From contig LCPF01000001.1 of the NCBI GenBank assembly GCA_001003475.1, positions 234,571-298,570 on the forward strand: 64,000 nucleotides of DNA, written 5' to 3'. This DNA comes from Candidatus Jorgensenbacteria bacterium GW2011_GWA1_48_11. Lineage in GTDB: Bacteria; Patescibacteriota; Minisyncoccia; UBA6257; GWB1-50-10. Positions 1,088-57,533 of this stretch are shown piece after piece. A model generated the notes under the pieces. The model worked only from the letters and a program-made list of their open reading frames with translations, was not told where the DNA came from and did not search any database. A program made the translations under genes and the position numbers. Position 1 is the first letter of the stretch, and each line of letters opens with the position of its first letter.

Positions 1088-2342
1088 AAAGAAAGTGCTG
1101 GCGAACGGCCTGCGGGTGATCTTGGTGCCGGAATCGCAGAGTTTGGCGACGACCGCCCTGGTTTTGGTCGAGGCCGGCTCCAAATACGAAACTAAGGACA
1201 TCAACGGCCTCTCCCATTTCTTGGAGCACATATGTTTTAAAGGAACGAAAGCCCGGCCGCGGGCGATCGACATCGCGAGCGAACTCGACGGTTTGGGCGC
1301 GCAATACAACGCTTTCACTTCACAGGAATACACCGGTTATTACACCAAGGTTCGGAACGAAAAGATAGATAAGGCATTGGAGATAATCACCGATCTCTAC
1401 ATCGATCCGGTCTTCGACGAAAAAGAGATCGAAAAAGAAAAAGGCGTGATCATCGAAGAAATGAATTTGTACGAGGATACGCCCTACCGCAAGATCCAGG
1501 ACCTGTTTTTGGGTCTGGTTTACGGCGATCAGCCGGCTGGCTGGGCCGTGTTGGGCCGGAAAGAAGTGATTTTAAAATTGAAGCGCAGCGATTTTCTGGC
1601 TTACCGGCGCCGGCATTATTTGCCGCAGTCGACGGTCGTTATCGTGGCCGGCGGTTTTCAAAAAGAAAAAATGCTGGAACAAATCGAAGCGCATTTTTCA
1701 AAATTACCGGGCGGCGGAAAAGAAAAAAAGATCCCAGTCGCGGAATCCCAGTCGAAACCTGAAGAAATCATCAGGTTTAAAGAATCCGATCAAACGCATT
1801 TGGTTTTGGGCTTTCGGGCTTTCAGCGCTTTCGACGAGAGGAAGTACGCGCTTGAAGTCCTGGCCGACATTTTGGGCGGCGGCATGGGCTCGCGGCTTTT
1901 CCAGAAGATTCGGGAAGAAATGGGGGCGGCTTATTATGTCCGGGCTTCGACTGATCTTTCTACTGATCACGGCTTGATGACGGTTTCGGCCGGGGTCCAG
2001 CATCAGAAAGTGGAAGCCGTAATCCAGGTTATTTTGGAGGAGTTTAATCGTCTGGCCAAAGAGAGGGTTTTGCCCGCCGATCTTCAGAGGGCCAAGGAGC
2101 ATTTGGTGGGCAACCTGTTCTTGTCTTTGGAAACGTCAGACGAAACCAGCTCCTTTTACGGCGTTCAGGAAATAATGGGTTTGGAACCGATCTCGCCCCA
2201 AGCCGTAGCCCGGAAGATTCAGGCGGTGACGAGCGAGGAAATCCAGGCAGCGGCCAAATCCCTTTTTAATAACGAGAGCCTGAACTTGGCCTTGATCGGG
2301 CCCTTTAAAGAGAAAACCTTTATTGATATATTAAAGGTATGA
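1071..2342 (+). CDS. M16-family zinc metallopeptidase (insulinase/PqqL-like)
   Basis: An inverted zinc motif HxxEH (HFLEH) sits near the N-terminus with the Glu-rich region downstream; 423 aa; overlaps the glyQS end by 17 nt. Confidence 0.8.
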   Translation: MEKSFEKKVLANGLRVILVPESQSLATTALVLVEAGSKYETKDINGLSHFLEHICFKGTKARPRAIDIASELDGLGAQYNAFTSQEYTGYYTKVRNEKIDKALEIITDLYIDPVFDEKEIEKEKGVIIEEMNLYEDTPYRKIQDLFLGLVYGDQPAGWAVLGRKEVILKLKRSDFLAYRRRHYLPQSTVVIVAGGFQKEKMLEQIEAHFSKLPGGGKEKKIPVAESQSKPEEIIRFKESDQTHLVLGFRAFSAFDERKYALEVLADILGGGMGSRLFQKIREEMGAAYYVRASTDLSTDHGLMTVSAGVQHQKVEAVIQVILEEFNRLAKERVLPADLQRAKEHLVGNLFLSLETSDETSSFYGVQEIMGLEPISPQAVARKIQAVTSEEIQAAAKSLFNNESLNLALIGPFKEKTFIDILKV

Positions 2343-49235: not shown

Positions 49236-51350
49236 TCACTCCCAATGGACTTCTTTTTGGAATTGATTTAACCGTTCCGAAAGGCTCGGGTGGTTTTTGA
49301 GCGCCGGGTCGCTTTTGAGGATTTTGACCGCGGCTTCACGGGCGACTTTGACCAGTTCCGGATTTTGAATGGCGGTCATAGCGATGTCCGGCAGGCCTGT
49401 TTGGCTTTGGCCTAGGAATTCGCCCGGCCCCCGGAGTTTAAGGTCTTTTTCCGCCAATTCAAAGCCGTTTTTCGCTTCAACGATGGATTTTAGTCTCTCG
49501 CGGGTGGCGCTCGAAGCAGAATCGGTGAATAAAAAGCAAAAAGATTGATGTTCGCCCCGGCCGACGCGGCCGCGGAATTGATAAAGCTGGGCCAGGCCGA
49601 ACCTGTCTGCTCCCTCAATCATCATCACCGTGGCGTTCGGGATATCGATGCCGACCTCAACGACCGAAGTTGAAACCAGGATATCGGCCCGTTTCTCATA
49701 AAAATCCTTTATAACTTTTTCTTTTTCGGCTGGTTTCATTTTCCCGTGGAGCATGACGATTTTGAGATCGGGAAATATTTTTTTTGAAAGTTTTTCGTAT
49801 TCTTCCTTGACCGATTTCACTTCTAATTTCTGCCATTCGTTCCAATCATTACCTTCGCTCACTTCCTGTTTTTCGATCCGGGGGCAGATGACGAAGGCTT
49901 GGCGGTCGCGTTTGATCTGGCCGCGGATGAAAGAGTAGGCCTTGGCGCGGTCGGCGGCCGCGACCGCCCTCGTAATTATCGGCTTGCGGTTCTTGGGCAT
50001 TTCCGTAATGAGCGATATGTCGAGGTCGCCGAAGATCGTAAGGCTTAAGGTTCGGGGAATGGGCGTGGCTGACATCGAGAGAAAATGCGGCACCAGTTTC
50101 TTGTTTTTCGTGAGGTGGGCGCGCTGTTCTACGCCAAAACGGTGTTGTTCGTCCACGATGACCAGGGCCAGATTCTGAAAACCGATCTTTTTCTGGATCA
50201 GGGCATGGGTGCCGACCACGATCTTTACCCTGCCGGCCGCAATTTCTTTCACGAGTTTGGTTTTTTCTTTTCTGGCTTCCAAACCGGCGCCGTAAAAAAT
50301 CTTGGCGTCGTTTGCGGTTAAGAGCGCCAGGCCGCCTTCATGGGCCGGGAAAAATTGGGTCATGGTTTTAAAATGCTGTTGGGCCAGTATTTCCGTGGGA
50401 GCCATGAAAGCGCTTTGGCAATTGTCCTCGGCGGTTAAAATGGCCGCGATCGCGGCAATGATGGTTTTGCCCGAACCGACGTCGCCTTGAAGCAGCCGGT
50501 TCATGGGGTGGGTTTTACCGAGGTCCTGAACGATTTCCCAGAGAGATTTTTTTTGGGAAGGCATCAGTTCGAAGGGCAGGGCGGCGAGCAATTTCTTGAT
50601 GTCTTTGATCCCGGTTTTCACGGCCGTGGTTTTTTCCCGGGCCAGCCTCAATTTTTGCTTGAGGTTCTGCATTTGGAGCAGGAATATGTCCTCGAAAGCG
50701 AAACGTTTCTTGGCAGCCAAGGCGTCCTCGAGGCTGTTCGGGAAATGGATGTCGCGGATGGCCCGGTTTATTTCCGGCAATTTCTGGCCCTGGAGGATTT
50801 CTTTCGGGACGATTTCGTCGATTTTTTCGATTTGGTCAATAATCGGTTTCACGAGGTAGCGCAAGCCCTTCGAGGTCAGGCCTTTGGTTTCCGGGTAAAC
50901 CGGCACGATTCGGCCGGTATGTCTGGTTTCGCGATAGGGATCGCTTACCAGTTCATAGACCGGATTTGAAAGATAGATTTCTTCGCTATTGGCGACGACC
51001 TTGCCGGAAAAGTTGGCAATCCGGCCTGGCCGCAGAACATTCTTGATGTAGGGCTGGTTGAACCAGACGATCCGGATCGAGCCGGAATCGTCCGAGACCA
51101 AGGCTTCAACCAGGAACAGGTGGCGGCGCCAGGTGCGCCGGCCGCCGATTTCCTTGATTTCGCCCTGGATCGTCGCTTCCTGGTTGGGCTCAAGATCGGC
51201 GATCCGGTAGATTTGGGAAAAATCCTCGTAGCGGGTCGGGAAGTGGTAAAGGATTTCCCGGACCGTTTCGATTTTCAGTTTCTTGAGTTTGGTTAAAAAT
51301 TTGAGGCCGATGCCGTGGACCTCGGCGAGCGGTGTGGCTGGTTCCAACAT
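49236..51350 (-). CDS. recG: ATP-dependent DNA helicase RecG
   Basis: Wedge domain plus SF2 helicase motifs (GDVGSGKT, DEQHRFG) and a C-terminal domain; 704 aa. Confidence 0.9.
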   Translation of the reverse strand: MLEPATPLAEVHGIGLKFLTKLKKLKIETVREILYHFPTRYEDFSQIYRIADLEPNQEATIQGEIKEIGGRRTWRRHLFLVEALVSDDSGSIRIVWFNQPYIKNVLRPGRIANFSGKVVANSEEIYLSNPVYELVSDPYRETRHTGRIVPVYPETKGLTSKGLRYLVKPIIDQIEKIDEIVPKEILQGQKLPEINRAIRDIHFPNSLEDALAAKKRFAFEDIFLLQMQNLKQKLRLAREKTTAVKTGIKDIKKLLAALPFELMPSQKKSLWEIVQDLGKTHPMNRLLQGDVGSGKTIIAAIAAILTAEDNCQSAFMAPTEILAQQHFKTMTQFFPAHEGGLALLTANDAKIFYGAGLEARKEKTKLVKEIAAGRVKIVVGTHALIQKKIGFQNLALVIVDEQHRFGVEQRAHLTKNKKLVPHFLSMSATPIPRTLSLTIFGDLDISLITEMPKNRKPIITRAVAAADRAKAYSFIRGQIKRDRQAFVICPRIEKQEVSEGNDWNEWQKLEVKSVKEEYEKLSKKIFPDLKIVMLHGKMKPAEKEKVIKDFYEKRADILVSTSVVEVGIDIPNATVMMIEGADRFGLAQLYQFRGRVGRGEHQSFCFLFTDSASSATRERLKSIVEAKNGFELAEKDLKLRGPGEFLGQSQTGLPDIAMTAIQNPELVKVAREAAVKILKSDPALKNHPSLSERLNQFQKEVHWE

Positions 51351-51387
51351 GCCGCCTATTTTAGCATATTTTCCGGCGATCGGGAAT

Positions 51388-52251
51388 CTAAACGCCGAAA
51401 CTTTTTCGCCAGCGTTGGATATAGTCTTGAATGCTGAAAAAAACCGGGTCGGTCTTCAATTCGTCGTCACTGATTTCTTTGCGGAAAGCGGCCTTGCCAG
51501 CTAAAATCGCTTTAACGATTTCCAGAGCCTCCCGATATCTGTTGGCTACGTCTGTTTTGCCGTTTTTGAGAGCGTACGCTTTAAAGGCTTCCAGCTGAAT
51601 TTTGATTTCCTCAAGGATCATGAATTGGATTTTGTGTCTGGCTAGCTCTTTATTGTCGCGTTCCATCCAAACAGGAATTAATTCTTGGATGGTCTTGCGG
51701 CTGGCGCCGATAATGACAGCTGGTACGTTTCTTAATTCGCCGCGGATATGCAAACGTTCCGATGAAAAATATTTGATTCGCGGCAGGCGGCCAGCCTTGA
51801 TCTGATCCGTAATCCTGCCGAATTTTTTTGAAGTGTCGGCGGTGAAAGTGACGTCTATGCCCAAACCCAAATGGGTCGCTTCCTGCGGTTTTTCGAATTC
51901 AACTATGGCGTCAATGCCGTTTTCGTAATCGTCATAGCGAGAAGTTTTCCTCGTGAAAGCATTGGGTCCAAACCAGTCATTTAATTCGCCCTGCTCAATG
52001 ACAATTGCTTCGAAGACGTCGGCTAGCATTTTCATTTCCCGGGATTCCGGTGCCTGATTGGCCCGAAAACCGGCCTCCCGTGAGTTCGCGTTATCGATAT
52101 CGTGCTTGATCCTTGCCGCGTCATAAAGATCGGTAAAATCAGTTTCTCTGATGGCGGCCGCGGCGAGAACGCCTCGCGCTTTTTTGAGGGCGATTTCTAG
52201 GTCGGCACGTTCCAATGCGTCTTCAAATGGTTGTTCGTAAGGATGGCTCAT
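51388..52251 (-). CDS. Hypothetical protein (about 286 aa)
   Basis: Start taken at MSHPYEQ (52251), because the longer ORF would overlap tRNA-Lys. No recognisable motif. Confidence 0.45.
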   Translation of the reverse strand: MSHPYEQPFEDALERADLEIALKKARGVLAAAAIRETDFTDLYDAARIKHDIDNANSREAGFRANQAPESREMKMLADVFEAIVIEQGELNDWFGPNAFTRKTSRYDDYENGIDAIVEFEKPQEATHLGLGIDVTFTADTSKKFGRITDQIKAGRLPRIKYFSSERLHIRGELRNVPAVIIGASRKTIQELIPVWMERDNKELARHKIQFMILEEIKIQLEAFKAYALKNGKTDVANRYREALEIVKAILAGKAAFRKEISDDELKTDPVFFSIQDYIQRWRKSFGV

Positions 52252-52259
52252 GGTTTTAG

Positions 52260-52330
52260 TCCCCCCACTAGGAATCGAACCTAGATACACGGTTTAAGAG
52301 ACCGGTGCTTTACCATTAAGCTATGAGGGG
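52260..52330 (-). tRNA. tRNA-Lys (anticodon CTT); unusual C1-G72 start
   Basis: Acceptor CCCCTCA/TGGGGGG, D-arm GCTT…AAGC, anticodon loop CTCTTAA with a C27·U43 mismatch, T-loop TTCGATT. Confidence 0.65.
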
Positions 52331-52332
52331 AT

Positions 52333-53067
52333 TTATAAATTTACTGGAGGTCTTTGCGTAACTGTTAAACCTGACCATTTTCTCTGTTTTGATTTTATTT
52401 TAGGAACGATATCTTGTAAAGCCGCTTTTATCCATCCAAAAATTCTATGTTTCATATCAGTCCCTTTGGGTACGCGCACTTTTATGGTTCCGTAATATAA
52501 ATTATTTTTCTTATAACCTTTATTAGGAGGTTTTATAAAGCTTTTGCCGAATCTATTTAACGGTATTCCTGTAATATCAGACCAAAATCTTTTGATTTGT
52601 ATTTCATTCTGTTGCGGATAAATATTCAGATGAGCTTTCATTGTTTTGGGTGAAACGTGAAAAATATCTTCAAACCATTTAGTCGCGAAGGCAATGAGGC
52701 CGGGATCGGAATTTGTGATTTCGAAGTTTTTTGTCTTGCTTCCTTCGGCCCAGTATAAGGCAGCGCCGAAAAGTTTATAAGTTTCGTGCGACAGGGGGGT
52801 TTTAATTTCTTTTATTGCTTTTTCAATTATTTCTTCGATTTCCCGTTCTCTCCTTTCTTTTTGGCTTTTTGGCCCTTTCGTAAGTATTTGAATTTGCTTG
52901 GTGTAGAGTCGTTGGTGATGCTCTGGTTTCAAGGGTATTTCCTTAAGCCAGAGACTTAAAGTACTTTTAGCAATGGAGTTTTTAAGTTGTTTCCTGATTT
53001 CGTTATAACTCAAGCCTTTTTTGCGGAGGAGGACCGCATTAATTCTAAGCGATGGATCGCTTTTCAT
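52333..53067 (-). CDS. LAGLIDADG-type homing-endonuclease-like protein with an N-terminal HTH; low GC (about 38%)
   Basis: N-terminal …KGLSYNEIRKQL…STLSLWLK… (HTH). The central LFGAALYWAEGSK matches the LAGLIDADG (LxGxxDGDGS-like) helix, followed by the beta-strand pattern of that fold. A strong SD AGGAGGT lies 6 nt upstream. The gene directly abuts a truncated tRNA. Confidence 0.55.
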   Translation of the reverse strand: MKSDPSLRINAVLLRKKGLSYNEIRKQLKNSIAKSTLSLWLKEIPLKPEHHQRLYTKQIQILTKGPKSQKERREREIEEIIEKAIKEIKTPLSHETYKLFGAALYWAEGSKTKNFEITNSDPGLIAFATKWFEDIFHVSPKTMKAHLNIYPQQNEIQIKRFWSDITGIPLNRFGKSFIKPPNKGYKKNNLYYGTIKVRVPKGTDMKHRIFGWIKAALQDIVPKIKSKQRKWSGLTVTQRPPVNL

Positions 53068-53088
53068 ACCTCCAATTGTATCATATAT

Positions 53089-53121
53089 GGCAACTGCTCT
53101 ACCAGTTGAGCTATGGGCGGC
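53089..53121 (-). pseudogene. Truncated tRNA: 5' half only (acceptor strand, D-arm and 5' anticodon stem; Lys-TTT-like), broken in the anticodon loop
   Basis: Minus-strand GCCGCCCATAGCTCAACTGGTAGAGCAGTTGCC has a perfect D-arm (GCTC/GAGC with AACTGGTA loop) and resembles bacterial tRNA-Lys up to position about 32. It then runs straight into the SD and ATG of the LAGLIDADG-like gene. No matching 3' half was found nearby. Confidence 0.5.
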
Positions 53122-53236
53122 TTTTATGATTCCTATTCTACCTGATTGATTTTTATTTTTGAAGCTTTAGAATATTTGGCAGTCCCCAATGTTCGCGGTT
53201 TCCGCTAGACGCATCCCTTCAGAACGGGGAGGAGAG

Positions 53237-53419
53237 ATGATTTGCAATTACGGCCGTCACCCGCATTACGGCGAGGAATCGGGGAGGTGTTCGGGGCATC
53301 CCGAGGAAGAACTGGTTTGCGGACCGGCAGTCCACGCCGTCTGCCTCAAGTGTCATCCCCGAATGGCCGAAGAGTGCCCCAACTGCCGCAAGCCCGCTTA
53401 TATTTGTCCTTGCCCATGA
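53237..53419 (+). CDS. Cys/His-rich 60-aa miniprotein (putative zinc-ribbon); GC-rich
   Basis: MICNYGRHPHYGEESGRCSGHPEEELVCGPAVHAVCLKCHPRMAEECPNCRKPAYICPCP: 9 Cys arranged in CxxC-like pairs, with GGAGG 5 nt upstream. The local GC content is well above the flanks. Confidence 0.35.
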   Translation: MICNYGRHPHYGEESGRCSGHPEEELVCGPAVHAVCLKCHPRMAEECPNCRKPAYICPCP

Positions 53420-53517
53420 GCGGCGGTGCCCAAAGCACCGCCGCGTCCATTTTTGTTTGGCGCCAACCCGCCGTTTACCGGAAGATTAAAAACCGATTTT
53501 GTTATAATTAAGTCAAG

Positions 53518-53805
53518 ATGGCGGCAATCGGCGAACCTTCGCAATCCCAGAAAAAAACGGTCATAACCATCGCCTTGGCGATTTTGGTAGTGGTTTTAAT
53601 AGCCGTCGTTTATTGGCGGTTCGGGCTCAAGAGCGCGGCGACGCCGGCGGAACAGGCGGCCGATTCTTTCCAAAAAGCGGTTGATTCCGCCGCCGGTATC
53701 CTGCCGGAAATAGATCCCGCTTCCAATCCCTTGGAGCAAATGCCGGACATAAACGCGGTTGAAAGATCTAATCCTTTCACGGATATCAAAATCAATCCAT
53801 TTTAG
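53518..53805 (+). CDS. Small membrane protein (95 aa) ending …IKINPF
   Basis: One TM helix; its C-terminus resembles that of the 34585..34875 protein. Confidence 0.4.
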   Translation: MAAIGEPSQSQKKTVITIALAILVVVLIAVVYWRFGLKSAATPAEQAADSFQKAVDSAAGILPEIDPASNPLEQMPDINAVERSNPFTDIKINPF

Positions 53806-53813
53806 CGGGAATC

Positions 53814-55355
53814 ATGAGGACAAAATATTTGCTTAGCGGGATTATTTTAAGCGCGGGTATCGTTACTGCCGTTTTTTTGATAACGAATGTTTTTGCCCAG
53901 ACCGCGTCCGCGCCGGCGGGCAATACCGCGAACGTCCAATTTCCCGTGCCGGAGTTGGGCAATTGCCGGAGCGAAACAGATTGCCGTTCTTTTTGCGATA
54001 AACCGGAAAACAGTCAGGCTTGTCTGAGTTTCGCGGAGAAAAACAATTTGATGTCGGCGGAAGAAATTGCCGCCGCCAAAAAGTTTTTGGCAGTCGGCAA
54101 GGGCCCGGGCGGCTGCACCACCAAAGATTCTTGTGAGAATTATTGCAACAGCACGGATCATATTAATGAATGCGTGGCTTTTGCGGAGAAAACCGGCATT
54201 TTGCCGCCGCAAGATCTAGCTGAAGCGAAGAAGGTTCAAGCGGCCTTGGCGCGGGGCCTTACGCCGCCCGGCAACTGCAAGAGCAAGCAGGATTGTGACA
54301 ATTATTGTTCGGATCCCGGCCATATGGAAGAATGCGTTACTTTTGCGGAAAAAGCCGGCTTCATGCCGGAGAATGAAATAGCTGAAGCCCATAAAGTTTT
54401 GGCGGCGATCAAAAAAGGCGCGAAGCCGCCGCCCTGCCGCGGCAAGGCGGAATGCGACGCTTATTGCGCCGAGCCGGTCAATTTCGAGCAGTGCATCTCC
54501 TTTGCCGAAGCGGCCGGATTCATGACGCCGGACGAGGCAGTGATGGCGCGGAAGACCGGCGGCAAGGGCCCGGGGGATTGTAAAAGCAAAGAACAATGCG
54601 AAGTGTTTTGCGAGGATCCGGCCAATCAGGAAATTTGTTTCAATTTCGCTAAAGAGCACGGCCTGATTTCTCAAGCCGACCTCCAAAAAATGGAAGAAGG
54701 TCGGGGGCAGATGATGCGGGGGTTTACCCAAGCGCCACCCGAAGTAATGGAGTGTCTTACGGGCGCTCTTGGCAGTGAAACAATCGAAAAGTTGAAAACC
54801 GGCACGGCAATGCCGAGCCGCGATATAGGAGATAAAATGCGCGAATGTTTTGAAAGAATTGGGCCGCCCGGTTTTGAGGGCGGAGGAGCGCCAGGGGGAT
54901 TTAGCGGTCCGGGCGGTTGCAGCTCGCCTGAAGAATGCATGAAATTCTGTGAGAGCAATCCCGAAGCCTGCCAAAATTTCAAGCCGTCGTCCATCATGCC
55001 GCCCGTTAATTTTGAACCCAATAATCAGCCGCCGGGCGATTTCAGGCCGCCGGAAAACATGCAGCCGCTAGAAGGCGGCACGCCTAGCGGGCCGATGCCG
55101 GGCATGATGTCGCCGCAGGGCTTATTGCCAGGTCAGGAATTTAATCCGCTACAAACCTTCTCGCCGGGTAGTATGCCGCCACCCGGCTCATTGGGAGGCG
55201 CTGACATAATGCAGCCGCCGTCAGCGGAACAAATCCAACAAATGATGCAGCAGGGAATCCAGCAATTCCAGCAAATGGCGCCGCCGCCGGAATCGGCGCC
55301 GCCGCCCAGCGGAGGAAATCTTTGGCAGGCCGTTAAGGACTTTTTTAGCCGATAA
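53814..55355 (+). CDS. Secreted protein made of six tandem four-cysteine repeats of about 45 aa, plus a Pro/Gln/Met-rich low-complexity tail
   Basis: Signal peptide, then repeats of the form G(N/G/D)C(K/R)S(K/E)x(D/E)CxxYCxxPxxxxxC(V/I)xFAEKxG(F/I)(M/L)xxxExxEAxKVxAAxxxG, repeated six times with the last copy partial. The Cys spacing is C-x5/6-C-x3-C-x8/9-C. A C-terminal segment of about 130 aa is rich in P/Q/M/G. Confidence 0.7.
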   Translation: MRTKYLLSGIILSAGIVTAVFLITNVFAQTASAPAGNTANVQFPVPELGNCRSETDCRSFCDKPENSQACLSFAEKNNLMSAEEIAAAKKFLAVGKGPGGCTTKDSCENYCNSTDHINECVAFAEKTGILPPQDLAEAKKVQAALARGLTPPGNCKSKQDCDNYCSDPGHMEECVTFAEKAGFMPENEIAEAHKVLAAIKKGAKPPPCRGKAECDAYCAEPVNFEQCISFAEAAGFMTPDEAVMARKTGGKGPGDCKSKEQCEVFCEDPANQEICFNFAKEHGLISQADLQKMEEGRGQMMRGFTQAPPEVMECLTGALGSETIEKLKTGTAMPSRDIGDKMRECFERIGPPGFEGGGAPGGFSGPGGCSSPEECMKFCESNPEACQNFKPSSIMPPVNFEPNNQPPGDFRPPENMQPLEGGTPSGPMPGMMSPQGLLPGQEFNPLQTFSPGSMPPPGSLGGADIMQPPSAEQIQQMMQQGIQQFQQMAPPPESAPPPSGGNLWQAVKDFFSR

Positions 55356-57451: not shown

Positions 57452-57522
57452 CGGGGAGGAGTATGCCGGTAGTACGCACGCTTCGGGTGCGTGTAGACCG
57501 GGTTCGATTCCCGGCTCCCCGA
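57452..57522 (+). tRNA. tRNA-Pro (anticodon CGG)
   Basis: C1-G72 acceptor (CGGGGAG/CTCCCCG), as in bacterial tRNA-Pro; anticodon stem CACGC/GCGTG with loop TTCGGGT; T-loop TTCGATT; discriminator A. Confidence 0.7.
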
Positions 57523-57533
57523 CAATTTCAGGC

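What the first reader, a model, noticed from the sequence alone, without database searches (positions are those of the whole stretch)
52260..53520. Low-GC LAGLIDADG/HTH nuclease-like gene fused head-to-tail to a tRNA 5' half, next to tRNA-Lys and a GC-rich Cys-rich mini-ORF
The minus-strand segment reads as 33 nt of a bona fide tRNA 5' half (acceptor strand, perfect D-arm, 5' anticodon stem; Lys(UUU)-like), then AGGAGGT, then the ATG of a 244-aa protein with an N-terminal HTH and an LFGAALYWAEGSK (LAGLIDADG-type) helix. The tRNA breaks exactly where bacterial tRNA group I introns insert, in the anticodon loop. No 3' exon is present before the next, intact tRNA-Lys(CUU).

The pattern suggests a degenerated intron/homing-endonuclease unit, or a mobile element that disrupted a tRNA gene. 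Directly upstream is a 450-bp stretch with a GC-rich miniprotein of 9 cysteines (53237..53419). Intron-borne LAGLIDADG genes are known in CPR rRNA and tRNA genes, which makes this a plausible but unverified site.
Basis: partly seen in the sequence, partly recalled or inferred. Interest (0 to 1): 0.6.

Follow-up and report, generated by a model that had tools for sequence, protein, structure and literature searches.

The report
Nuclease gene glued to tRNA-Lys, with relic
The half tRNA is real, but it is the leftover front end of an older tRNA-Lys(CUU) gene and not an intron exon; the gene beside it belongs to a large, undescribed family of homing-endonuclease-like genes that in ultra-small (Patescibacteria) bacteria always sit directly in front of a tRNA gene.

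Summary
On the minus strand lie a 32-33 nt tRNA 5' half (53089..53121), a low-GC 244-aa ORF (52333..53067) and an intact tRNA-Lys(CTT) (52259..52330).

- The half is 31/32 identical to intact tRNA-Lys(CTT) genes of other Patescibacteria. It is CTT-type, not UUU-type.
- It differs from the window's own downstream tRNA-Lys (23/31).
- There is no intron: no ribozyme match, no 3' exon, and the ORF fills the gap.

In all 86 homologous loci the ORF is followed by tRNA-Lys(CTT) on the same strand, within about 27 nt or overlapping in 80 of them. More distant relatives sit beside tRNA-Lys, tRNA-Gly or tRNA-Phe genes. ORF-less "empty" sites exist. About 15 loci carry 5' relics that never extend past tRNA position 33.

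My best reading (inferred, not shown) is a free-standing homing-endonuclease-like gene that travels with its own tRNA-Lys allele and replaced the resident one, much like phage T4 SegB. A domesticated DNA-binding factor remains a serious rival.

The parts
53089..53121 (-). Relic 5' half of a tRNA-Lys(CTT) gene ('allele A'). It covers tRNA positions 1-32 (53120..53089) plus one upstream G, and is truncated between C32 and position 33.
   Evidence: Read directly. Unique in the window at up to 3 mismatches. It is 31/32 identical to 33 intact tRNA-Lys(CTT) genes but only 23/31 to the window's own tRNA-Lys.
53135..53163 (-). Promoter-like site (TTCAAA-17-TAGAAT) 13 nt upstream of the relic. It may be the old tRNA promoter.
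   Evidence: Consensus scan. The number of such sites in the region is not above chance, so this is weak.
53068..53088 (-). Junction and leader: ATATATGATACAAT-TGGAGGT. It has an extended -10-like box (TG 53083..53082, TACAAT 53080..53075) only 7 nt before the ATG. The same junction is found in L006, and a similar one in L013.
   Evidence: A -10-like box at this register is present in 67 loci. A leaderless or near-leaderless mRNA is an inference.
52333..53067 (-). 244-aa protein with an N-terminal transposase-type HTH (about residues 5-42), a helical linker, and one LAGLIDADG domain (about residues 90-230; motif LYWAEGSK with invariant E108-G109-K111).
   Evidence: GenBank KKU91695.1 'Resolvase helix-turn-helix domain protein'.
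52259..52330 (-). Intact tRNA-Lys(CTT) ('allele B'), 2 nt after the ORF stop codon. It is the functional copy.
   Evidence: ARAGORN. Rfam tRNA 67.1 bits. It is 69/71 identical to the ORF-linked tRNA of L006 and 54/73 to allele A.
53237..53419 (+). Orphan Cys-rich mini-ORF (60 aa from ATG 53237; 76 aa from 53189). It is not part of the tRNA/nuclease unit.
53420..53454 (+). Intrinsic terminator-like hairpin (10 pairs, 9 of them G-C) plus a T-run, directly after the mini-ORF stop codon.

Best explanation
The locus is a free-standing, homing-endonuclease-like gene (HTH plus a single LAGLIDADG domain) fused to the 5' side of its own tRNA-Lys(CUU) gene. The 32-nt half tRNA upstream is what remains of the earlier resident tRNA-Lys(CUU) allele.

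Proposed course of events:
1. The resident tRNA gene was broken at the 5' edge of its anticodon loop.
2. The unit [short promoter - nuclease gene - complete tRNA-Lys(CUU) allele B] was copied in from another genome or copy.
3. The cell kept a working tRNA-Lys(CUU) without any splicing, and the old 5' half was stranded upstream.

This resembles the 'intron-less homing' of phage T4 SegB, which sits in a tRNA cluster, cuts tRNA gene DNA and drags neighbouring tRNA genes along. In most relatives the same gene sits between intact tRNA-Arg(UCG) and tRNA-Lys(CUU), which could then serve as the homology arms.

Shown:
- the identity of the relic;
- the two different tRNA-Lys alleles;
- the LAGLIDADG relationship with the metal-binding Glu retained;
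- the invariable ORF-tRNA linkage;
- the presence/absence polymorphism;
- the synonymous-site AT bias.

Inferred:
- DNA cleavage activity and its target (perhaps the palindromic anticodon stem-loop);
- the homing mechanism;
- co-transcription of the ORF and the tRNA.
For: 1. Relic identity. It is 31/32 identical to intact tRNA-Lys(CTT) genes (all 33 exact-pattern hits are CTT) but 23/31 to its own downstream tRNA. Its acceptor and anticodon-stem strands cannot pair with the downstream 3' half.
2. Linkage. In 86 of 86 loci the ORF is followed by tRNA-Lys(CTT) on the same strand, within about 27 nt or overlapping in 80 of them (range -121 to +135 nt). A 35-42%-identical subfamily shows the same arrangement. 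Paralogs lie 5' of tRNA-Gly(GCC) and tRNA-Phe(GAA).
3. Empty sites. All 28 allele-A loci with at least 800 nt of upstream sequence lack the ORF. L100 and L106 have tRNA-Arg(TCG) 5-15 nt from tRNA-Lys. Their CCA-adding enzymes are 63-67% identical to the window's, as close as or closer than those of ORF-bearing loci.
4. Relics elsewhere. About 15 of 86 loci carry 5' relics with at least 4 junction types, none reaching beyond tRNA position 33. Relics match other genomes' functional alleles better than their own. The L016 relic equals the L031 functional tRNA at 31/31, and L031 carries a relic of the other type.
5. No locus has an intact second tRNA-Lys(CTT) upstream (0 of 86).
7. Composition. 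ORF GC3 is 0.34 against 0.59 +/- 0.07 in the window, and lower than the flanks in 76 of 80 loci.
8. Incongruence. L031 against L027/L005 shows ORF 71-72% but CCA enzyme 57-59%. The window and L006 share a near-identical linked tRNA (69/71), whereas L001 and L008, equally distant by RecG (59-61%), have 55-56/73.
9. Precedent: SegB (PMC2330249).
Against: - No nuclease activity or target site is shown.
- The family is strongly conserved (55-78% identity, more than neighbouring RecG or the CCA enzyme). I noticed no clearly decayed copies, which is unusual for selfish homing genes.
- ORF identity correlates with neighbour identity (Spearman 0.51) and synteny is broadly conserved. Inheritance is therefore mostly vertical.
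- No copy was found on viral contigs.
- The intact downstream tRNA would itself be a target unless allele B is resistant, and this is untested.
- The window and L006 share the same junction although their RecG proteins are only 59% identical, which a single recent insertion does not explain (note 4).
Confidence: 0.45

Rival explanations
1. Domesticated factor. The protein is a vertically inherited, WhiA-like DNA-binding (or RNA-binding) protein encoded in the tRNA-Arg/tRNA-Lys operon of Patescibacteria, for example an operon regulator. The tRNA half is only a decaying piece of a local tRNA-Lys duplicate.
For: - High conservation and an intact ORF in all loci examined.
- Conserved neighbourhood: CCA-adding enzyme, tRNA-Arg(TCG), RecG.
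- Positive ORF-neighbour identity correlation.
- The top structural hit is WhiA.
- The N-terminal HTH is typical of regulators.
- No viral copies.
Against: - The metal-binding Glu of the LAGLIDADG motif is invariant, whereas from my own knowledge, not checked here, WhiA has lost it.
- Relic and functional tRNA are different alleles, and the relic matches alleles of ORF-less genomes.
- The allele order appears swapped in L016 against L031, though the L031 relic is degenerate (24-25/30 against 21/30).
- 0 of 86 loci have two intact copies.
- The breaks cluster at position 33 or before.
- There is a systematic GC3 deficit.
- The gene is patchily present, with clean empty sites.
Confidence: 0.3
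2. One reading: a degenerated group I intron carrying a homing-endonuclease gene, inserted in the anticodon loop of a tRNA-Lys gene whose 3' exon has been lost.
For: - The break is at the anticodon loop.
- The protein is LAGLIDADG-type.
Against: - No Intron_gpI or group II model matched at E up to 10 in either a 4-kb or a 0.95-kb scan.
- Only 21 nt upstream and 2 nt downstream of the ORF are non-coding, which leaves no room for a ribozyme.
- There is no 3' exon in the window.
- In most of the 86 relatives no tRNA-Lys relic was recognised, and in 36 an intact tRNA-Arg(TCG) lies within 1 kb upstream on the same strand.
- Position 32/33 is not a reported insertion site, and tRNA-Lys is not mentioned in PMC13011429.
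Confidence: 0.03
3. Integrase-type mini-element. The ORF is a site-specific recombinase, and the two tRNA-Lys 5' halves are attL/attR direct repeats of an element of about 0.8 kb integrated at the anticodon loop.
For: - The layout 5' half - ORF - 5' half + 3' half looks like target duplication.
- Anticodon loops are classical att sites (my own knowledge, not checked here).
- GenBank calls the protein 'Resolvase HTH domain protein'.
Against: - The two copies are only 23/31 identical, so they are not att repeats.
- There is no serine- or tyrosine-recombinase fold or Pfam match; only the HTH resembles that of resolvases and transposases.
- Known tRNA-integrating elements duplicate the 3' part of the tRNA, not the 5' part (my own knowledge, not checked here).
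Confidence: 0.05
4. Split or permuted tRNA. The 5' half is functional and is joined in trans or in cis to a 3' half encoded elsewhere, as in Nanoarchaeum.
For: The relic keeps a perfect D-arm and acceptor strand, and it is better conserved than a neutral relic should be (note 4).
Against: - No matching 3' half lies within 64 kb.
- No complementary leader sequence was seen next to the relic on reading the flanks.
- L006 carries the same relic with a 7-nt deletion in the D-arm.
- An intact tRNA-Lys(CTT) is present.
- From my own knowledge, not checked here, bacteria lack the archaeal splicing endonuclease.
Confidence: 0.02

Closest known systems
Phage T4 SegB (free-standing GIY-YIG homing endonuclease in the T4 tRNA gene cluster; PMC2330249)
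   Same: - It is a free-standing nuclease gene embedded among tRNA genes.
- It recognises conserved tRNA-gene DNA.
- It spreads together with the surrounding tRNA genes and displaces the recipient's tRNA region.
The layout here (nuclease gene, linked tRNA allele, displaced resident allele, empty sites in relatives) fits that logic.
   Different: - The nuclease family differs (LAGLIDADG-like plus HTH, not GIY-YIG).
- The host is a cellular Patescibacteria chromosome, not a phage.
- Activity and target are unproven here.
- The gene is glued to one particular tRNA, Lys(CUU).
Single-motif and two-motif LAGLIDADG homing endonucleases (I-CreI, I-CeuI, I-DmoI, I-Tsp061I)
   Same: - The motif helix ends in an acidic residue followed by Gly, then a beta-strand. 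LYWAEGSK aligns with I-DmoI LYVAEGDK.
- A single domain implies a homodimer and a near-palindromic target (general knowledge of the family).
   Different: - No Pfam LAGLIDADG_1/2/3 match at the curated cut-off.
- There is an extra N-terminal transposase-type HTH and a long helical linker.
- It is not inside an intron or intein.
WhiA (DUF199): a bacterial transcription factor made of two degenerate LAGLIDADG domains plus a C-terminal HTH
   Different: - One LAGLIDADG domain, not two.
- The HTH is N-terminal, not C-terminal.
- The catalytic Glu is retained here.
- No match to the Pfam WhiA families, apart from a faint HTH_WhiA hit in one distant member.
Group I introns with homing-endonuclease genes in Patescibacteria tRNA genes (PMC13011429)
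   Same: Same phylum, tRNA genes as targets, and the anticodon loop as the site.
   Different: - No ribozyme and no splicing needed, because a complete replacement tRNA is supplied.
- tRNA-Lys is not among the reported hosts.
- The reported endonuclease genes in Patescibacteria tRNA introns are HNH, not LAGLIDADG.

Membership tests
LAGLIDADG endonuclease superfamily | LAGLIDADG-type motif helix ending in a conserved acidic residue followed by Gly | tested here: met
   The A2 profile against PDB sequences hits I-DmoI at E 0.003-0.009, with GaaLYwaEGsK aligned on IKGLYVAEGDK. E108, G109 and K111 are invariant in 50 close and 56 diverse members. That the I-DmoI Glu is catalytic rests on my own knowledge.
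LAGLIDADG endonuclease superfamily | alpha-beta-beta-alpha-beta-beta-alpha core fold | tested here: met
LAGLIDADG endonuclease superfamily | Match to the curated Pfam models (LAGLIDADG_1, _2, _3, _WhiA) | tested here: not met
   No hit in the window protein or in 50 family members. There is only a faint LAGLIDADG_3 hit (E 0.027) in one distant fused member, P0182. hhalign against I-CreI found nothing.
LAGLIDADG endonuclease superfamily | Site-specific double-strand DNA cleavage leaving 4-nt 3' overhangs | not testable with these tools
   Needs the purified protein.
Homing endonuclease gene (selfish, mobile) | Presence/absence polymorphism at a fixed site in a conserved target gene, with empty sites in relatives | tested here: met
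   86 of 86 ORFs lie directly 5' of tRNA-Lys(CTT). All 28 informative allele-A loci lack the ORF, including tRNA-Arg-tRNA-Lys pairs 5-15 nt apart.
Homing endonuclease gene (selfish, mobile) | Phylogeny incongruent with the host; decayed copies | tested here: inconclusive
   Some incongruent pairs exist (L031 against L027/L005: ORF 71-72%, CCA enzyme 57-59%), and linked tRNA alleles are swapped between hosts that are equally distant. But the overall ORF-neighbour correlation is 0.51-0.65. No obvious pseudogenes were seen.
Group I intron | Ribozyme core (Rfam Intron_gpI and related models) | tested here: not met
   No match at E up to 10 in 51000..55000 or in 52250..53200.
Group I intron | 5' and 3' exons that join to form one functional tRNA | tested here: not met
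   There is no 3' half for the relic in the window. The downstream tRNA is complete on its own, and its strands do not pair with the relic.
WhiA | Two LAGLIDADG domains followed by a C-terminal HTH, with catalytic residues lost | tested here: not met
   There is one domain, the HTH is N-terminal, and the Glu is retained.
tRNA-targeting integrative element | Tyrosine or serine recombinase gene, and identical att repeats made of tRNA sequence | tested here: not met
   No recombinase domain or fold. The repeats are only 23/31 identical.

The most novel reading that the evidence does not exclude
A whole superfamily behaves as 'splicing-free tRNA-gene invaders'. The superfamily has thousands of 50%-identity clusters and no Pfam or NCBIfam model. 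Each member is an HTH-LAGLIDADG nuclease that cuts a particular tRNA gene in its anticodon stem-loop. It spreads by bringing along a complete, cleavage-resistant replacement allele of that tRNA, leaving the 5' half of the victim as a scar that may double as a homology arm. This would be a nuclease/immune-tRNA-allele pair that drives turnover and anticodon-stem diversification of tRNA-Lys(CUU) genes across Patescibacteria.
Probability: 0.2. Interest if true: 0.8.

Novelty: new variant of a known kind. Interest (0 to 1): 0.55.

Why it matters
If the best explanation holds, three things follow.

- Homing endonucleases could colonise an essential tRNA gene without an intron, by carrying a spare copy of the gene they destroy.
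- tRNA genes of the most genome-reduced bacteria would be subject to selfish replacement.
- It would give a name and a testable function to a very large unannotated protein family: more than 1000 close homologs, and 5533 clusters at 50% identity at E below 1e-3. GenBank currently labels it 'hypothetical' or 'resolvase HTH protein'. Compact new LAGLIDADG scaffolds with an added HTH could be useful as targeting nucleases.

If instead the protein is a domesticated factor, it is a conserved, Patescibacteria-specific component tied to tRNA operons. That would still be worth knowing in organisms where a large share of genes has no assigned function.

Tried and rejected
- Group I/II intron: rejected. 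Two Rfam scans were negative and there is no room for a ribozyme.
- Missing 3' half or permuted/split tRNA: searched with T-arm plus acceptor patterns and with the allele-A 3' half at 3 mismatches. Only the intact tRNA-Lys matched.
- tRNA-Lys(UUU) origin: the best single match among the first loci was a UUU gene (L055). The metagenome scan then gave 33 of 33 CTT genes at 31/32, so the relic is CTT-type.
- Foldseek against PDB gave only generic alpha/beta hits. afdb50 was not available. hhalign against I-CreI found nothing.
- Pfam and NCBIfam: no family hit apart from the HTH.
- Phage vector: no relatives on IMG/VR contigs (one search failed for technical reasons).
- 'The family promoter is a decayed tRNA half': a register test gave 7.1 of 20 matches against a background of about 4.9, with another register scoring higher. 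It is not convincing and was dropped.
- Dependence of the ORF on tRNA-Lys(CUU): rejected. The ORF uses AAA:AAG at 31:4.
- The mini-ORF as part of the system: rejected. It lies on the opposite strand, has its own signals and is an orphan.
- Context of two distant members (P0347, P0377): no DNA was available.
Full report
**What is in the sequence.** On the minus strand the window reads, 5' to 3':
- a promoter-like TTCAAA-17-TAGAAT (53163..53135);
- G-CCGCCCA-TA-GCTC-AACTGGTA-GAGC-A-GTTGC-C (53121..53089);
- ATATATGATACAAT-TGGAGGT;
- the ATG of a 244-aa ORF (53067..52333);
- two bases;
- an intact tRNA-Lys(CTT) (52330..52259).

The 32-33 nt fragment has an acceptor 5' strand, a perfect D-arm, the 5' strand of an anticodon stem and C32. 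It is unique in the window even with 3 mismatches, with 0 expected by chance. The ORF is compositionally odd. GC is 0.32-0.42 against about 0.52 in the flanks. GC3 is 0.34 against 0.59 +/- 0.07 for 42 long ORFs of the window. It uses AAA:AAG at 31:4 against 66:34 in the window. The window comes from Candidatus Jorgensenbacteria bacterium GW2011_GWA1_48_11, and the ORF is KKU91695.1, 'Resolvase helix-turn-helix domain protein'.

**What the half tRNA is.** Among tRNAs of related loci it resembles only tRNA-Lys. A scan of metagenome contigs with positions 4-32 returned 33 loci. All are intact tRNA-Lys(CTT) genes reading CCGCCCATAGCTCAATTGGTAGAGCAGTTGCC|TCTTAAGCAA..., which is 31/32 identical to the relic. 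The relic is thus the 5' part of a tRNA-Lys(CUU) gene ('allele A') cut between C32 and U33, and it is not UUU-type.

The window's own intact tRNA-Lys(CTT) ('allele B') differs in the acceptor, D-arm and anticodon stem. It is 23/31 identical to the relic, and 54/73 to allele A overall. The relic cannot pair with the downstream 3' half, so the two do not form one split gene. No 3' half of allele A exists in the 64 kb.

**Not an intron.** Two Rfam scans with permissive thresholds (4 kb and 0.95 kb) found only the intact tRNA and no group I or II model. Only 21 nt upstream and 2 nt downstream of the ORF are non-coding. The recent survey of group I introns in Patescibacteria tRNA genes reports sites 33/34 to 36/37 and Asn/Asp and other hosts. 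It does not mention tRNA-Lys, and the endonuclease genes it found in Patescibacteria tRNA introns are HNH (PMC13011429).

**What the protein is.** It has more than 1000 close homologs (55-78% identity), all from Patescibacteria, found in 372 species-representative genomes. It has no Pfam or NCBIfam family apart from weak transposase/resolvase-type HTH matches at the N-terminus. AlphaFold models are confident: pLDDT 88 for the full length and 93 for residues 88-244.

- Foldseek was uninformative.
- With the C-terminal domain alone, the 14 best hits are all LAGLIDADG folds: WhiA 8.8, an intein endonuclease 7.7, I-Tsp061I 7.6, I-DmoI 7.1, I-CeuI 6.9, I-CreI 5.4.
- A profile built from 56 diverse members hits I-DmoI in the PDB at E 0.003. 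It aligns GaaLYwaEGsK...NsDp with the second LAGLIDADG motif, IKGLYVAEGDK.
- E108, G109 and K111 are invariant in close and distant members.

I accept it as a divergent LAGLIDADG-superfamily protein that keeps the metal-binding Glu. It has one domain, which implies a homodimer, preceded by an HTH. It is not WhiA, which has two domains, a C-terminal HTH and lost acidic residues.

**The decisive context.** In all 86 loci that encode a homolog (85 fetched loci plus the window; four of the fetched loci are duplicates of the same contigs), the ORF is followed on the same strand by tRNA-Lys(CTT). The tRNA starts within about 27 nt of the stop codon, or overlaps it, in 80 of them (full range -121 to +135 nt). 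In about 27 loci the ORF has no stop of its own and ends at the TAG of tRNA positions 8-10 or the TAA of positions 36-38. In 36 loci tRNA-Arg(TCG) lies upstream on the same strand. The CCA-adding enzyme and RecG are frequent neighbours, as in the window.

An exhaustive profile search shows a much larger superfamily: 5533 clusters at 50% identity with E below 1e-3.
- A subfamily only 35-42% identical (Berkelbacteria and others) is again wedged between tRNA-Arg and tRNA-Lys(CTT).
- Other members sit immediately 5' of tRNA-Gly(GCC) (L073, L110), immediately 5' of tRNA-Phe(GAA) (L124), or just after tRNA-Asp (L123).

Association with the 5' side of tRNA genes is therefore a property of the family, not of this locus alone.

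**Presence/absence and relics.** The 33 allele-A loci carry no homolog of the ORF. This could be judged for the 28 with at least 800 nt of upstream sequence. In L100 and L106, tRNA-Arg(TCG) and tRNA-Lys(CTT) are 5 and 15 nt apart, which is a clean empty site. Their CCA-adding enzymes are 63-67% identical to the window's, at least as close as those of ORF-bearing loci at 49-64%.

Conversely, about 15 of 86 ORF-bearing loci carry a recognisable tRNA-Lys 5' fragment just upstream of the ORF. There are at least four junction types:
- window, L006 and L013: position 32 | ATRTRTGAYATAAT;
- L015, L016 and L049: position 31-33 | A-rich leader plus ATG;
- L044: about position 27;
- L046: position 16.

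All start at tRNA position 1 and none goes beyond position 33. Each relic matches functional tRNA-Lys(CTT) genes of other genomes better than the one downstream of it. The L016 relic equals the L031 functional tRNA at 31/31. The L031 relic appears to resemble the L015/L016/L049 type instead, but it is degenerate (24-25/30 against 21/30 to its own tRNA). No locus has a second intact tRNA-Lys(CTT) upstream.

**Vertical or mobile?** ORF identity correlates with the identity of the neighbouring CCA enzyme (Spearman 0.51, Pearson 0.65; 231 pairs), so descent is mainly vertical. There are outliers: L031 against L027/L005 shows ORF 71-72% but CCA enzyme 57-59%, and several pairs have close hosts with divergent ORFs. 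The window and L006 share an almost identical linked tRNA (69/71), whereas L001 and L008, equally distant by RecG (59-61%), have 55-56/73. ORF GC3 lies below that of the flanks in 76 of 80 loci. No copy was found on viral contigs.

**Best explanation.** The gene is a free-standing homing-endonuclease-like gene travelling with its own tRNA-Lys(CUU) allele. At some point the resident allele A was broken at the edge of its anticodon loop and replaced from there on by [short promoter - ORF - allele B], leaving the 5' half stranded. This is the logic of phage T4 SegB, a free-standing endonuclease in a tRNA cluster that recognises tRNA-gene DNA and carries neighbouring tRNA genes into recipients (PMC2330249).

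The cleavage activity, the target and allele-B resistance are inferences. The target may be the palindromic anticodon stem-loop, which would suit a homodimer. The main rival is a domesticated, WhiA-like factor inherited vertically in the tRNA operon, with relics arising by duplication and decay. High conservation, the lack of decayed copies and the mostly vertical signal speak for the rival. The invariant Glu, the different alleles, the apparently swapped allele order, the absence of two-copy states and the break-point limit speak against it.

**Unresolved.** The window and L006 share the same junction although their RecG proteins are only 59% identical. Yet the window's relic is nearly identical to living alleles, and similarity between the two loci begins exactly at tRNA position 1 (note 4). 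The relic may be functional (a homology arm, or -35/UP sequence), it may be refreshed by conversion, or the cassette including the relic may have moved between lineages.

**The Cys-rich mini-ORF.** It lies on the opposite strand (53237..53419). It has GGAGG 4 nt before its ATG, a promoter-like site, and a hairpin of 10 pairs plus a T-run directly after its stop codon. It has no homolog among 5.8 billion proteins or in any related locus. It is probably a real but orphan gene, unrelated to the tRNA unit.

**Verdict.** The intron interpretation is rejected. The 'mobile element that disrupted a tRNA gene' reading and the LAGLIDADG call are supported. Novelty: a new variant of a known kind, namely a LAGLIDADG-type, free-standing, tRNA-linked gene. 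I found no description of it in five literature searches.

Noticed in passing
window 53189..53454 (+): Orphan Cys-rich mini-protein (9 Cys, CxxC-x8-CxxC) with its own GGAGG, a promoter-like site (53146..53173) and a strong terminator (53420..53444). It has no homolog anywhere except its own 2-member cluster.
   Followed up: yes
window 51388..52251 (-): 287-aa orphan protein (UniRef name 'Restriction endonuclease'; no Pfam or NCBIfam match) inserted between tRNA-Lys(CTT) and RecG. It is absent from L006, where RecG follows the tRNA directly.
   Followed up: partly
about 27 of 86 loci, e.g. L013 873..882, L019, L009: The nuclease-like ORF has no stop codon of its own and terminates inside the tRNA-Lys gene (TAG at tRNA positions 8-10 or TAA at 36-38). 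RNase P processing of a co-transcript would therefore remove the stop codon.
   Followed up: partly
L006 1890..1907 and 1968..1985; L001 2749..2930: An 18-nt direct repeat of the 3' end of tRNA-Arg(TCG) lies about 60 nt downstream of the gene in L006. 5' and 3' tRNA fragments flank tRNA-Arg in L001. tRNA-gene scars seem common in these clusters.
   Followed up: no
L073 3953..4627 (-), L110 1096..1428 (-), L124 1201..1866 (+), L123 1201..1878 (+): Distant paralogs of the ORF lie immediately 5' of tRNA-Gly(GCC), immediately 5' of tRNA-Phe(GAA), or just after tRNA-Asp(GTC). In L073 a D-arm-like fragment (TAGCTCAGAAATGGTAAAA) sits between the paralog and tRNA-Gly.
   Followed up: partly
proteins P0160 (532 aa), P0182 (576 aa), P0164, P0169, P0172: High-GC, Arg-rich members of the superfamily are fusions of two or three HTH-LAGLIDADG modules (single-chain pseudo-dimers?). 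They probably come from outside Patescibacteria; the source organisms are unknown.
   Followed up: no
window 53814..55355 (+): 513-aa secreted, Cys-rich repeat protein between tRNA-Arg(TCG) and the relic. It has no family match, but homologs (37-44% identity) lie in the same neighbourhood in L018, L036, L040 and L043.
   Followed up: no
upstream of the ATG in 67 of 86 loci, e.g. L046 2460..2500: A conserved element ...TTGTAGTTCGGCTCCCCTGTGTGATATAAT-TGGAGGT-ATG. The extended -10 box lies only about 7 nt from the start codon, suggesting a leaderless or near-leaderless mRNA. GGAGG is too close to the ATG to act as a normal Shine-Dalgarno sequence.
   Followed up: partly
window 57455..57523 (+): tRNA-Pro(CGG) is called with only 69 nt and the anticodon at position 30, an unusual geometry. 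The window carries 17 tRNA genes in 64 kb.
   Followed up: no
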